Shown: positions 22,509-28,336, counted from the stretch's first letter. The stretch: DNA of 64,000 nucleotides from Chiloscyllium plagiosum (GCF_004010195.1 NC_057719.1:13688731-13752730); one strand, 5' to 3'. The notes: generated by a model not told the origin, from the sequence alone. A program made the numbers and translations.

Positions 22509-22966
22509 AGCTCTGATGCTGTCTCATTTGTTGGGAGATAGGGTGCGTGGTAGAGATGGAGGCGGGGGTGGGGGGGGGGGGGGGGGAGCTGCTGGTTACT
22601 GGTGGAATAAGTAGTTACATTCAAATACTTAATATTGAAGAGTCACTGCTTTGGATCACATTATAATCGAACCAGCTAAAAAAAAGTAAAGATTACCCAC
22701 CAGTTGGTGAGAAATGTATTATTGATCAAATGATTGTCATAAGCCAATCTTTTCGGTTAAAATGACTCAGAGTAATAACACACTATAATGAATCAAATCT
22801 CTTCTTGCAGGGAGTGTGGCTGCCTCAAAGTGAGCAGGACAACAATTTCACCTGCTTTCTTCAGAACTGGGATTGGGAATGGATTTAAGGGGGAAGAGCT
22901 GCAGTGATTGTTATCAGGTCAGCCAGGTGGACCTCATAGAATATGAGTTCCCTGATTAGGGATATT

Positions 22967-23430
22967 TAGATTAGATTCCCGACAGTGTGGACACAGGCCA
23001 TTTGGCCCAACAAGTCCACACCGACCCTCTGAAGAGTAACTTGGCCAGATCCATTCCCCTATATTTACTCCTGACTAATGTACCTAACACTACGGGCAAT
23101 TTAGCATGGCCAATTCACCTGACGTGCACATCTTTGGATTGTGGGAGGAAACCCACGCAGTCACGGGGAAGTTGTGCAAACCCCATACAGACAGTTACCT
23201 GAAGTGGGAATCGAGCTGAAAATGTGTTGCTGGAAAAGCGCAGCAGGTCAGGCAGCATCCAAGGAGCAGGAGAATCGATGTTTCTGCATTAGCCCTCCTT
23301 CAGGAATCAGGAATCTTTCAGCTCTGATCTCCAGCATCTGCAGTCCTCACTTTCTCCTTGAAGTGGGAATCGAACCAAGGTCTCTGGCACTGTGAGGCAG
23401 CAGTGCTAATCACTGAACCACTGTGCCACC
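22967..23430 (-). mobile_element. HE1-type V-SINE nested in the 5' LTR
   Basis: ttagattagattcccgacagtgtgg tail to cactgaaccactgtgccacc head. Confidence 0.9.
23215..23358. mobile_element. PLE family A derivative with 15-bp TSD, nested in the SINE
   Basis: TSD tgaagtgggaatcga at 23200-23214 and 23359-23373. Confidence 0.85.
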
Positions 23431-25812
23431 TATGTTAAATCAGGGAGCCCCAGCTAACAGATAAAAATGGGAGTGTCAGAGGTTCTGTTCACTCTGAGAG
23501 CTGTCTCAGACTGAGGCAGTACTAAAATAAAGGGTGGTTCATGTGTAGATAAAAGGCAACTTGGTGATGGGATACCAGCCTCTGTGGAGTTACTTCAGTG
23601 GTGAGGAGAGTAAAACACGACTCCAAGGAAACTTGCTCGCAACAGTTATCCTTGAGTTGGGGTAAGCATTTCTTACAGAATTCCTTTATTTGGGAACCTT
23701 GACTCGTTCGAGAACCGGGCCCAGTTTGTGAAAAGAATGCAATATTCTCCCTGGGCAAGTGACATCGTGGCAGATGAAAAGCAACCAGTCTGTCCTGACA
23801 GCCTGCGGGGCCACAGCCTTTTTTGATACTGGGAGCCTAACTTTTCCTGAGGCTCCAGAAAGCAAAACCTTTCAAGTTATTGATGGACATAGTTAAGGCA
23901 TATTATGACCCCCAAGCCTCCTCAAATTCTGAGTTGCTTTCATTTTTACTCAAGTACTGGGGAGAATTTGTACCCAGGAACCTTTGCAGATTAAGGGTTC
24001 AACTTCAGTTCGGGTCTCTTATGAAATTAGTAACCAATAATTGTAGTAAAAGTCTCGGGCCCAAACTTGATAGGACAAAATTCATTGCGACAGATTCACC
24101 TAGATTACCTCAAGTTGAGCTAATTTCAAATTGAGTGAAGTCCTAACTAATACCCAGAAATTTTTTTATGAAGGTCTGGGGATTATCCAGGTGACTTTGC
24201 ACGTTGACCCGGAAGCAATTCCGCATAGCCTAGCCTCCATCCTGGCACCTTTGTATCAAATCCTAAAAAAGGGGTCAGCCTTGAAAATGGTCACATAGAC
24301 AAAACCTACGTTTCAGTGAAGTAAATAAAAAGCTAATATCCTGTAAGGTGTCGGCACACTATACCCCAAGAAAGAGCTAGTATTGACATGTGATGTCTCC
24401 CTGGACCGCATTGGGGTAGTATTCGCTCATAGGTGGCCCTCAATGGAGAGGAACACCCAATAGCTTGTGCATCCAGGATTTTGACGAATGCAAAGTGTTA
24501 ATATGCCCAGAGCAGGAAGGATGGATGGTCATTTTTGGAGTCAGGAAGTACCACCAAAAGCTTTATGGCTGAAAATGTGTGATAATCAAGGACCACAAAC
24601 CCCTATTTGTACAAGACAGAGGACAAAGACAGAACGCAGCTGCTCCCTCACATACGTTGGAATGGCTAGGTAAATCTTGGACTCAGTTGATGTCGGCTAT
24701 GCAAATCCTTTTATGGGCTCACTGTTCTTAGTCACTATGGACACCCACTCAAAGTGGTTGGATGTGCATAGGGTCCATTCATCAAACACGGAGATGATGA
24801 TTGAAAAATTGCACACATCTTTTTTCTATACATGGAGTCTCAGAAGCATTGGTCACAAATAATCAGCCATCATTCACCAGCAGCAAACTTAAGGATTTCC
24901 GAAAGTCAAATGCCATTTGACATATAAGGATAGCTCCATAATCACTCATCATCCAATGGCCTGGCAGAAAGAACAGTCCAAACTTTGAAGGCTGGCTTGA
25001 AGAAATGGCCTACAGCCTCACGAGATACTAAAATGTCACGGTTCGTGTTTATTAGAAGTCCATTGCACATACAACGAGATGAATACCACTGACAGAGTTG
25101 CTAATAGGGAGAAGACTCTGCACCAGGTTAAATCTGATCTTCAAGGACCATGAGAGGAGGGTGAAACAGCATCCAGAATGCCCATGCCAAACACAAGACT
25201 CCCCCATGTGAAAGAAATAGTTTGATACAAGGGACGACATTTGGTGTAAGAATCAAGAAAGTGGCCCTACATGGGTAAGAGATATGGTTGATGTGAGGTC
25301 AGGACCAGTGACCTATAAGGTTCAGGTTGGTGCAATGGTCTTGAACAAGCATGTGAACCATATGAAAGCCACAAAGTCACAAACAATGTGGGAGCAAGAT
25401 GTGCTCTACCCCTCAGAAAGGCTGCTGGAACCCATGGGTTCACCCTCTCCTTCAAGTGCAAACTCTCCAAATCAGAGATGGACATGATGGATATATCTGC
25501 CTCAACACTTTTGCCACTGGAAGAAGAGAGTGAAATTTTACCAAGGTGCTCCTGGTGCAAGAAGCAAACTCCTGTACATTATACATCACTCATATCGATC
25601 ACGGAGTCAGAGGGACCTGACCCAGTTCTAAAATGCCCAAGGAGCCTCTCCAAGAAAGAGGACCGTCCTGTGTCATCGGATTCAGAGAGGGAGGGATGTA
25701 GCAATTGTAAGGAGGTCAGCCAGTTGGACCTCATAGAATATGAGCTCCTTGATTGGGGCTGTTAATCTGGTCCAATCAGGGAGCTCTGTCTGACAGATAA
25801 GAACAGGAATGT

Positions 25813-26034
25813 AACTCTATTTTGATTTAGTCCCTACCCTCCCCTTCACTGTTTTTGATCACACAGCACTGCCCTTTGATGTGTTTTCCTATCTTCCTGG
25901 TGGTGGAATTTGAATAAAGATTCGTGCACTTTGTGTCTTTCACTGTGTCTCACACCTGCACACACACACCATGGGTGCTGGGAAAAAAAAATAAGCACTA
26001 CTGCACTTAGGTGGTAGTGTGGGGGTTCAAAAAC
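25813..26034 (+). mobile_element. Tx1/L1-clade non-LTR retrotransposon, copy 1 (essentially 3' UTR only)
   Basis: Matches the 3' UTR of the neighbouring copies; flanked by aagaacaggaatgt at 25799-25812 and 26035-26048. Confidence 0.8.
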
Positions 26035-26048
26035 AAGAACAGGAATGT

Positions 26049-27094
26049 AACAGATCCAGGCAGTGGGCCGTGGAGGGAGTCGTTAGGGCCGACTGCCTGC
26101 CCCTCTTCCGCGGTTACGTTAGGGCCCGGGTGTCCTTGGAGAAGGAGCACGCGGTGTCCACCAACACCCTGGAGTTATTCAGGGAGAGGTGGGCGCCGCA
26201 GGGAGTGGAGTGCATCATTTCTCCCTCCAACTCTATTTTGATTTAGTCCCTACCCTCCCCTTCACTGTTTTGATCACACAGCACTGCCCTTTGATGTGAA
26301 GGACAGTGTTTGTCACTGGCCACCCGGGTGTTTTCCTATATTCCTGGTGGTGGAAATTGAATAAAGAGTGGTGCACTTTGTGTCTTTCACTGTGTCTCAC
26401 ACCTATACACACACNNNNNNNNNNNNNNNNNNNNNNNNNNNNNNNNNNNNNNNNNNNNNNNNNNNNNNNNNNNNNNNNNNNNNNNNNNNNNNNNNNNNNN
26501 NNNNNNNNNNNNNNNNNNNNNNNNNNNNNNNNNNNNNNNNNNNNNNNNNNNNNNNNNNNNNNNNNNNNNNNNNNNNNNNNNNNNNNNNNNNNNNNNNNNN
26601 NNNNNNNNNNNNNNNNNNNNNNNNNNNNNNNNNNNNNNNNNNNNNNNNNNNNNNNNNNNNNNNNNNNNNNNNNNNNNNNNNNNNNNNNNNNNNNNNNNNN
26701 NNNNNNNNNNNNNNNNNNNNNNNNNNNNNNNNNNNNNNNNNNNNNNNNNNNNNNNNNNNNNNNNNNNNNNNNNNNNNNNNNNNNNNNNNNNNNNNNNNNN
26801 NNNNNNNNNNNNNNNNNNNNNNNNNNNNNNNNNNNNNNNNNNNNNNNNNNNNNNNNNNNNNNNNNNNNNNNNNNNNNNNNNNNNNNNNNNNNNNNNNNNN
26901 NNNNNNNNNNNNNNNNNNNNNNNNNNNNNNNNNNNNNNNNNNNNNNNNNNNNNNNNNNNNNNNNNNNNNNNNNNNNNNNNNNNNNNNNNNNNNNNNNNNN
27001 NNNNNNNNNNNNNNNNNNNNNNNNNNNNNNNNNNNNNAAAATAAGCACTACCGCACTTAGGCGGTAGTGTGGGGGTTTTAAGAAAAAAAAAATT
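26049..27094 (+). mobile_element. Tx1/L1-clade copy 2 (ORF2 end plus 3' UTR, spanning the assembly gap; may be more than one copy)
   Basis: NRSRQWAVEGVVRADCLPLFRGYVRARVSLEKEHAVSTNTLELFRERW; CpG-rich, consistent with a young insertion. Confidence 0.8.
26415..27037. other. Assembly gap (N run)
   Basis: Run of n characters. Confidence 1.
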
Positions 27095-27100
27095 AACAGG

Positions 27101-27686
27101 GAATTCTCCCAGCCCAACTGCTTGTTCTGTGGCGCTGTGGAGTCCGTGGACCACGTGTATATTGGGTGTGGGCGTTTGCACTCCCTTTTTGATTTTCTGA
27201 AAAACCTTCTCCTCTGTTTTTGGCTGCACTTCAGTCCCACGCTCCTGATCTTTGGGCACCCGGTACGGAGGAAGGAGGGCAGGTCTGAAGACCTCCTCGT
27301 GGGTCTGCTCCTGGGCCTGGCCAAACTGGCCATCAACAGATCCAGGCAGCGGGCTGTGGAGGGGGTCATTAGGGCCGACTGCCTGCCCCTCTTCCGCGGT
27401 TACGTTAGAGCCCGGGTGTCTCTGCAGAAGGAGCACGTGGTGTCGACCAACACCCTGGAGTTGTTCAGGGAGAGGTGGGCGCCGCAGGGAGTGGAGTGCA
27501 TTATTTCCCCCTCCAAATTTTGATTTAATCCCTGCCCTCCCCTTCACTGTTTGATCACACAGCATTGCCCTTTGTGTAGGGCACTGCTTGTCACTGGCCA
27601 CTCGGGTGTTTTCCTATCTTCCTGGTGGGTACTGGGGGAAAAACAAGCACTACTTCAGTTAGGCGGTAGTGTGGGGGTTAAAAACA
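27101..27686 (+). mobile_element. Tx1/L1-clade copy 3 (ORF2 C-terminal zinc knuckle plus 3' UTR)
   Basis: CLFCGAVESVDHVYIGC (CCHC motif typical of the L1/Tx1 ORF2 end), LLLGLAKLAINRSR; frame open to 27523. Confidence 0.85.
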
Positions 27687-28165
27687 ATAAACAGGAGTGT
27701 CGGAGTTCTGTAAAATAATAAATAAATAAATAAATAAATAAATAGGAGTGTCAAAACTTCTATTCACTAAAAGAAAAGAACAGGAATGTCAGAGATACTT
27801 ACACTCTGAGAGCTGACTCAGTAATGGGCCGTTCACGTGTAACTAAAGGGTTACTTGGTGACAGGGCGTAGGCCTCTGTGGAGTCATGTCATAGCCATCC
27901 TGAAAGGAAAGAGTGAGTAATTGTAGCAGAGAATACAAATGGGTCAAAATAGGGGTGACTGATGTTTTTTCAAAACACTGACTCGTGTTGAGGTTACCCT
28001 CGACACCTATCCACTCTTGAACATAAAAATGGCAAAGTTAATATGCAGAACAGTAGTTTTGACTTTCCATACATATTAGAAAATACATATCAAGGCTTGA
28101 CAGATAAAATTCCTTTAAAGATTAATTTATATACTTGGTGCATCAGTAGTGACTTTCAGCACTTA

Positions 28166-28336
28166 GTTAAAAATCACACACCAGGTTATAATCCAACAGG
28201 TTTATTTGGAAACACTAGCTTTTGGAGGTGCTGCCTCAAGAGCTAGTGCTTTCAAATAAACCTGTTGGACTATAACCTGGTATTGTGTGGTTTTTAATTT
28301 TGTTCACCCCAGTCCAACACCGGCACCTCCAAATCA
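28166..28336. mobile_element. Palindromic PLE family C derivative
   Basis: Long inverted arms accaggttataatccaacaggtttatttggaaacactagct / agctagtgctttcaaataaacctgttggactataacctggt. Confidence 0.75.

What the first reader, a model, noticed from the sequence alone, without database searches (positions are those of the whole stretch)
25799..27789. Pile-up of Tx1/L1-clade retrotransposons at one 14-bp site inside a Gypsy LTR: candidate LTR-targeting LINE
Seen in the sequence: at least three same-orientation copies with different 5' truncation points (starts 25813, 26049, about 27101) lie head-to-tail. The LTR word AAGAACAGGAATGT recurs exactly at 25799, 26035 and 27776, and partially (aacaggga) at 27095. 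The empty homologous site in the 5' LTR (about 23460-23485, gataaaaatgggagtgtcagagg) has no insertion and differs in sequence. Established: several Tx1-clade LINEs are sequence-specific (snRNA genes, tRNA spacers, microsatellites, DNA transposons). Inference: this family specifically targets a site beside the TATA-like motif of an LTR family, making it a parasite of a parasite. I do not know of a description of this in sharks.
Basis: partly seen in the sequence, partly recalled or inferred. Interest (0 to 1): 0.8.

Follow-up and report, generated by a model that had tools for sequence, protein, structure and literature searches.

The report
LINE that borrows LTR promoters
A Tx1-type jumping gene lands again and again just behind the TATA-like box of another jumping gene's end-repeat, and its full-length copies begin with a piece of that end-repeat or of their own tail, so it likely borrows the host repeat's promoter and likely lets the copy already sitting there set where each newcomer starts.

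Summary
Real and genome-wide. The word AAGAACAGGAATGT (25799, 26035, 27776) is the target-site duplication (TSD) of a Tx1-clade LINE; ORF2 is 41-49% identical to Xenopus Tx1. In a positional sample, 31 of 58 loci sit at the TATA-like site of this LTR family; many others lie elsewhere with their own TSD. So this is strong preference, not strict specificity. LTR-preferring Tx1 families are in print (crocodilians), and this scan found this family before on other DNA of the same genome.

Added here: (1) the window shows two visible local insertions, not three; copy C came in with a foreign word and shares its junction with two other chromosomes. (2) Full-length copies start either with the LTR's own R region, rebuilding its core promoter, or with a copy of their own ORF2 end. 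(3) Units in one array share start points (69 of 114 loci, against 17 expected), and their private bases match only near the start, which points to 5' junctions templated by the resident copy. Promoter use is inferred; RNA reads showed no start site.

The parts
22901..23597 (+). Upstream LTR, interrupted at about 22965-23434 by unrelated repeats; target site (about 23458-23480) empty; followed by a primer-binding-site-like motif (label recalled)
   Evidence: (D12, D18)
23598..25697 (+). Degenerate LTR-retrotransposon interior, broken by many stops; Gypsy assignment rests on a weak RT_RNaseH_2 hit and recalled motifs
   Evidence: PF17919, E=0.072, below cutoff; about 68% DNA match to other loci next to the same LTR
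25698..25812 (+). Left part of the host LTR: CCAAT box, TATA-like motif (variant form here), first copy of the word at 25799-25812
25813..26034 (+). Unit A: 3'UTR-only copy with terminal hairpin and short A tail; begins with the same 3 bases as unit B, so likely the newest, promoter-proximal insertion
26035..26048 (+). Second copy of the local TSD word
26049..26414 (+). Unit B: end of ORF2 plus 3'UTR, running into the gap
   Evidence: D2: 93% to C
26415..27037 (.). Assembly gap (N run); not spanned by any record laid
27038..27103 (+). LINE 3' end with 10-bp hairpin, A tail and a foreign word; junction shared with contigs C33 and C5
   Evidence: z = -4.3
27101..27680 (+). Unit C: last 137 codons of ORF2 plus 3'UTR with an internal deletion
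27681..27775 (+). Tail, foreign word + 11 nt of another LTR copy, tail, foreign word + 17 nt of a third LTR copy, tail: carried-along flanks of earlier donor sites
27776..27891 (+). Third copy of the local word and right part of the host LTR
   Evidence: (D18)

Best explanation
This is an array of a Tx1-clade LINE that prefers the TATA-like site of one LTR family and likely uses that LTR's promoter in place of its own. Shown: insertion at one position and orientation with a TSD of about 14 bp; stacking at the regenerated word; foreign words and flanks carried inside inserts; full-length copies headed by the LTR's R region or by their own ORF2 end and 3'UTR; shared start points within arrays, with private bases shared only near the start. 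Inferred: (1) the APE endonuclease nicks in the TATA motif and primes reverse transcription on the A tail. (2) The upper-strand break sometimes falls tens to hundreds of bases downstream, and the overhang (word plus the start of whatever follows) anneals to homologous cDNA. (3) At an empty LTR this rebuilds CCAAT-TATA-initiator-R in front of the LINE; at an occupied LTR it gives the newcomer the resident's start and restores the leader. (4) Read-through transcripts move blocks of units. In the window, the block 26049-27775 would have come first and unit A second.
For: Tx1. Preference: 31 of 58 loci against 3 of 59 on the control strand; at least 8 of 65 LTR sites on contig C1 occupied. Transduction: 0 of 54 short word-led stubs repeat locally (5 are the element's own inner A run); LTR words inside TSD-bounded off-site inserts (L003; L171, L173, L180, L195, L196); C junction identical from -58 to +101 on C33. 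Heads: 30 of 30 have the own-3'-end leader; of 67 heads, 47 leader, 14 R, 2 both, 4 other; unbroken U3-TATA-R-5'UTR in L258, L260, L269, L271; 5' head shares private bases with the same locus's 3' flank in 4 of 6 assessable pairs (by eye). Same starts: 290 of 1649 pairs within loci against 1.5% between; 69 of 114 loci against a permutation mean of 17.1, maximum 27. Shared rare alleles 45, 24, 6, 7, 2, 0% by distance, controls 0-4%; the gradient persists in the 40 loci where the first unit is involved.
Against: No start site was seen in RNA: no pile-up, LINE 5'UTR depth 4 or less, and reads also over U3. Nearly half the loci are off-site. The same position also holds SINE-like and other inserts, so it may be a general hot spot. 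The first 25-nt bin of the gradient can be inflated by alignment edges, and counts are small (22, 11, 4, 6, 2, 0 shared alleles). Two of six R-head pairs (L312, L319) were ambiguous. Head classes were sampled with two biased queries. The idea that AATAAA at the tail-word junction ends read-through RNAs failed its test (41 of 63 against 38 of 60, p = 0.85). The gap could hide more local words.
Confidence: 0.6

Rival explanations
1. Ordinary target-preferring Tx1 with R1-like stacking. The R-like head is a fossil of one ancestral insertion and now holds, or is irrelevant to, an internal promoter; same-start units come from later gene conversion or unequal crossover between neighbours.
For: Tandem arrays separated by a 14-bp TSD and carried downstream flanks are described for Drosophila R1 (PMC2718515, passages). 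Within-locus pairs with different starts share a few rare alleles (2-4%); some same-start pairs are near identical throughout (L182, L028).
Against: Crossover at the word copies whole units and gives no gradient; concordance at common variants falls from 0.92 to the 0.7 baseline and does so also when the hybrid is the first unit. Leader lengths run from 13 to 626 nt and match residents' starts in L233, L240, L245.
Confidence: 0.27
2. The site is a general retroposition hot spot (a T/AAA nick site in open promoter DNA) used by a loosely specific L1-like enzyme; no family is dedicated to the LTR.
For: 27 of 58 loci off-site; two off-site hits sit at TATAAA after CCAAT boxes of another repeat (L171, L198); other RNAs land at the same place.
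Against: 1381 exact sites of the 24-mer in 3.56 Gb (a lower bound on LTR number) take over half of the loci; the LINE's own 5' end is made of this LTR's R region. Passengers mobilised by the same enzyme would share its target.
Confidence: 0.1
3. Assembly artefact or local tandem duplication.
For: N gaps are frequent in these arrays; no record laid spans the window's array; a 764-nt identical stretch in L074 could be an assembly effect.
Against: Units differ in start and by about 7% in sequence; contigs of run X1 show LTR-to-LINE joints at 25797-25812 to many different LINE positions; the pattern recurs on many chromosomes.
Confidence: 0.03

Closest known systems
Tx1-8_Crp and Tx1-4_AMi, crocodilian Tx1 families (PMC4494074; section 15, section 20 and passages read; supplements not available)
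   Same: [quoted passage not shown]
   Different: The main text gives no position in the LTR, no arrays and no target-derived head. Supplementary figure S4, which I could not see, may bear on this.
Tx1L of Xenopus laevis (PMC1950540, passages; YTX2_XENLA protein P0004)
   Same: Best named relative: 41% over the endonuclease half, 49% over 849 aa of the rest; sequence-guided insertion into another transposon.
   Different: Target is the DNA transposon Tx1D and is described as stringent; here about half of the loci are off-site.
R1 of Drosophila (PMC2718515, passages)
   Same: 14-bp TSD; tandem arrays made by insertion into the TSD at the 5' end of a resident; downstream flank carried to off-target sites; annealing at 5' junctions.
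   Different: Other clade, 28S rDNA target; annealing uses upstream target sequence and gives deletions. Here the head matches downstream target sequence or the resident copy and gives long duplications.
TART/HeT-A non-terminal repeats and Penelope pseudo-LTRs (PMC1636488, PMC5537684, PMC8557442, passages)
   Same: A copy of the element's 3' region stands in front of the 5'UTR.
   Different: The leader here is not closer to the element's own 3' copy (rank 1 in 2 of 12), has a fixed junction without tail or word, and sits behind a foreign promoter.

Membership tests
Tx1 clade non-LTR retrotransposon | ORF2 with APE endonuclease, RT and C-terminal zinc-binding domain | tested here: met
   PF03372, PF00078, PF13966 in order on L068 (only one RT piece passes the curated cutoff because the copy is frameshifted)
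Tx1 clade non-LTR retrotransposon | Groups with Tx1 in an ORF2 phylogeny | tested here: met
   FastTree on the endonuclease-linker part, 19 sequences: groups with Xenopus Tx1, a turtle and a sturgeon protein, support 0.999. No L1 outgroup and no named Keno or crocodilian sequences; P0013 left out.
Tx1 clade non-LTR retrotransposon | ORF1 with CCHC knuckle upstream of ORF2 | tested here: inconclusive
   CX2CX4HX4C seen by eye in L077; no Pfam hit
Tx1 clade non-LTR retrotransposon | A-rich tail, 5' truncation, TSD | tested here: met
Target-preferring Tx1 (criterion of PMC4494074: over 20% of flanks) | One repeat type in more than 20% of flanks | tested here: met
   31 of 58 loci
Strictly site-specific LINE (Tx1L, R1, R2 type) | Nearly all insertions at the target | tested here: not met
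   27 of 58 loci without LTR junction; 14 with their own TSD
Target-preferring Tx1 | Endonuclease nicks the target in vitro | not testable with these tools
   needs biochemistry
TART-type perfect non-terminal repeats | 5' repeat matches the same element's 3' copy better than other copies | tested here: not met
   rank 1 in 2 of 12 elements
Gypsy LTR retrotransposon (host) | RT-RNaseH-integrase order between LTRs with PBS and PPT | tested here: inconclusive
   one weak PF17919 hit, 0 hits for 4 other pieces; terminal motifs recognised from recall
Named Repbase/Dfam family | Match to a library consensus | not testable with these tools
   no such library on hand

The most novel reading that the evidence does not exclude
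A promoterless LINE whose 5' end is written by its target. It captured an LTR's R region from the initiator to just short of the LTR's poly(A) signal, so insertion at an empty LTR rebuilds a full promoter in front of it. As LTRs filled with its own truncated copies, it came to carry its own ORF2 end as a leader that anneals to the resident copy, which resets the 5' end at each insertion and turns dead stubs into both promoter-driven passengers and landing pads.
Probability: 0.4. Interest if true: 0.75.

Novelty: new variant of a known kind. Interest (0 to 1): 0.55.

Why it matters
LTR preference in Tx1 elements is known, but why a LINE would pick that site is not. A head made of the target's own transcribed region gives a reason: a borrowed promoter. 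How the 5' junction and second strand of a LINE insertion form is still poorly understood; hundreds of natural arrays in which the newcomer's first bases come from the resident copy record that step and make it testable. It also warns that downstream flanks overcount targeting when the target word rides on the RNA.

Tried and rejected
TART-like self-regenerated repeats: rejected. AATAAA at the tail-word junction as the cause of short stubs: no enrichment. Stubs as tail-only local insertions: rejected, 0 of 54 repeat locally. Whole-unit duplication as the main source of same-start units: not favoured. Order of the two head types: R-headed copies are less alike (0.877 against 0.912) and mostly near the midpoint root, but the classes are mixed in a 190-nt tree, so no order is claimed. 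RNA: no RNA holder was listed by the index. Run X21 gave sense-strand, family-level reads (1810 laid, 32 at 99% or better) with A-rich loose ends at the 3' end, which genomic tails could also give; X22 gave none. No start site. The loose word pattern flagged 10 of 14 off-site inserts; I count 5 as clear. Literature: searches found no shark Tx1 targeting paper and no description of a target-derived head in Tx1; Kojima and Fujiwara 2004, Repbase reports and the supplements of PMC4494074 were not seen. No structure or complex prediction was run.

Full report
Observation. The 14-mer lies exactly at 25799, 26035 and 27776 and nowhere else in the window. It splits an LTR into 25698-25812 and 27790-27891; three pieces of one LINE lie between, with an N gap at 26415-27037. 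The upstream LTR is empty at this site, but it is only 73-84% like the downstream one, so it serves as a family control, not a proven partner. The host interior is too decayed to classify firmly.

The element. Near-full-length copies elsewhere in the genome (L068, L077) show an ORF1 with a CCHC knuckle and an ORF2 with endonuclease, RT and zinc-binding domains. ORF2 is 41% and 49% identical to Xenopus Tx1 and groups with it at 0.999 in a small tree without an L1 outgroup. The 3' end carries a 10-bp hairpin. An exact 21-mer of the 3' end occurs 4067 times, the reversed control 0 times.

Targeting. I took the matches listed in order along the first 86 Mb of contig C1, merged into 58 loci (the last three listed clusters were not fetched). 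31 have the LTR's upstream part ending at the word, or its downstream part resuming after a tail; 3 of 59 records had such a hit on the opposite strand. Of the other 27, 14 have their own TSD of 14-18 bp (one 24) at an A-rich site and about 5 could not be resolved. From the LTR side, 1381 exact sites of a 24-base pattern exist, 668 followed by native bases. On C1, at least 8 of 65 hold this LINE and 3 more hold other inserts; the 33 native-looking sites were not fetched. Among 29 other LTRs found by similarity, 4 held this LINE and about 8 held something else at the same position (by eye). The verdict is strong preference, not strict specificity.

The word travels. Off-site inserts bounded by their own TSD contain LTR words inside (L003; 5 clear cases among 14). 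Of 54 short stubs that start with a word and end in a tail, none repeats what follows it (5 are the element's inner A run). In the window, the tail-word-start junction of unit C exists at three places in the genome; the copy on C33 is identical from -58 to +101 and has 2 differences to +242, then drops to family level. So the visible local events are two: the block 26049-27775 and unit A. A and B both begin with the same 3 bases after the word, which fits A arriving second and joining by microhomology. The gap may hide further events.

The 5' head. In 30 of 30 loci found with a full-length 5'UTR, a short LTR-like stretch and, before it, a copy of the LINE's own ORF2 end and 3'UTR precede the UTR, without tail or word between. 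Leaders run from 13 to 626 nt and are not closer to the element's own 3' copy (rank 1 in 2 of 12). A second type starts with the LTR's R region: in L258, L260, L269 and L271 the sequence runs unbroken from U3 through CCAAT, TATA and the word into R and then the LINE 5'UTR. Of 67 distinct heads, 47 are leader type, 14 R type, 2 both and 4 other, the last all in LTR context (two biased queries). In empty LTRs an initiator-like motif lies 30 bases after the start of the TATA motif and a poly(A) signal lies about 10 bases past the end of the captured stretch (motif labels recalled). In 4 of 6 assessable R-headed copies the 5' head shares private bases with the same locus's 3' flank for 25-40 nt (by eye), that is, a long duplication.

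Resident-templated starts. Among 584 units in 173 loci, 290 of 1649 within-locus pairs share a start against 1.5% between loci; 69 of 114 multi-unit loci have such a pair, against 17.1 (maximum 27) in 1000 permutations, and 63 of 69 also share the word. Rare alleles are shared in 45, 24, 6, 7, 2 and 0% of cases at 0-25, 25-50, 50-100, 100-175, 175-300 and 300-600 nt from the start, with controls at 0-4%; concordance at common variants falls from 0.92 to the 0.7 baseline. The first bin may be inflated by alignment edges, and two loci (L246, L247) may be one place. The gradient holds in the 40 loci where the first unit is involved. In L233 a private inverted piece heads both units. This fits an upper-strand overhang that includes the resident's first bases and anneals to the cDNA. 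Gene conversion cannot be fully excluded.

Expression and reality of the array. One raw RNA run gave sense-strand reads over the LINE 3' region at family level; contigs of another run show LTR-to-LINE joints at the same position with many start points, but nothing spans the array. No transcription start was seen on an R-headed copy. Promoter borrowing is therefore inferred from anatomy alone.

Comparison. LTR-preferring Tx1 families are reported in crocodilians (PMC4494074; supplements not seen). Arrays at a 14-bp TSD and carried flanks are described for R1 (PMC2718515). Repeats of the 3' region before the 5'UTR are known in TART, HeT-A and Penelope-like elements. Utopia and Keno passages were read for junction types. 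Seven searches found no shark report and no target-derived Tx1 head. This scan noted the family several times on other DNA of this genome; the short notes do not mention the heads or the shared starts (one search found none).

Verdict. A real, LTR-preferring Tx1 LINE: a known kind, with a variant 5' end and junction mechanism that are supported by sequence statistics but untested at the bench. Interest 0.55.

Noticed in passing
L242:350-895; L323-L352: A second, young, A-tailed family (GC-rich repeats, AT-rich end, copies 99% alike at the tail, 1839 candidates) uses the same LTR site: 19 of 30 loci, query included. No Tx1 ORF similarity in its own 650 nt; a passenger or the long 3'UTR of another LINE.
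   Followed up: partly
L025, L135/L232: tRNA-like pieces (Val-like and Asp-like, recalled) sit between a word and a tail inside arrays.
   Followed up: no
L093, L101, L094, L100, L306: SINE-like and unidentified sequences start exactly at the end of the word in otherwise empty LTRs.
   Followed up: no
L171, L198: Two off-site insertions fall at TATAAA after CCAAT boxes of what looks like another repeat family.
   Followed up: no
L231 (about 9370); L245 (160-660): An ORF2 end runs straight through the leader junction into a new 5'UTR, like LTR elements sharing one LTR; L245 holds an internally deleted mini-copy.
   Followed up: no
L151, L170: Off-site insertions with apparent duplications of about 100 bp.
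   Followed up: no
L074: Array of at least 24 units with a single local word; two long units identical for 764 nt, then 67 differences.
   Followed up: partly
window 28180-28281: 45-nt inverted repeat with a 12-nt spacer, made of a common repeat end.
   Followed up: no
window 22965-23434: Other repeats interrupt the upstream LTR away from the TATA site.
   Followed up: no
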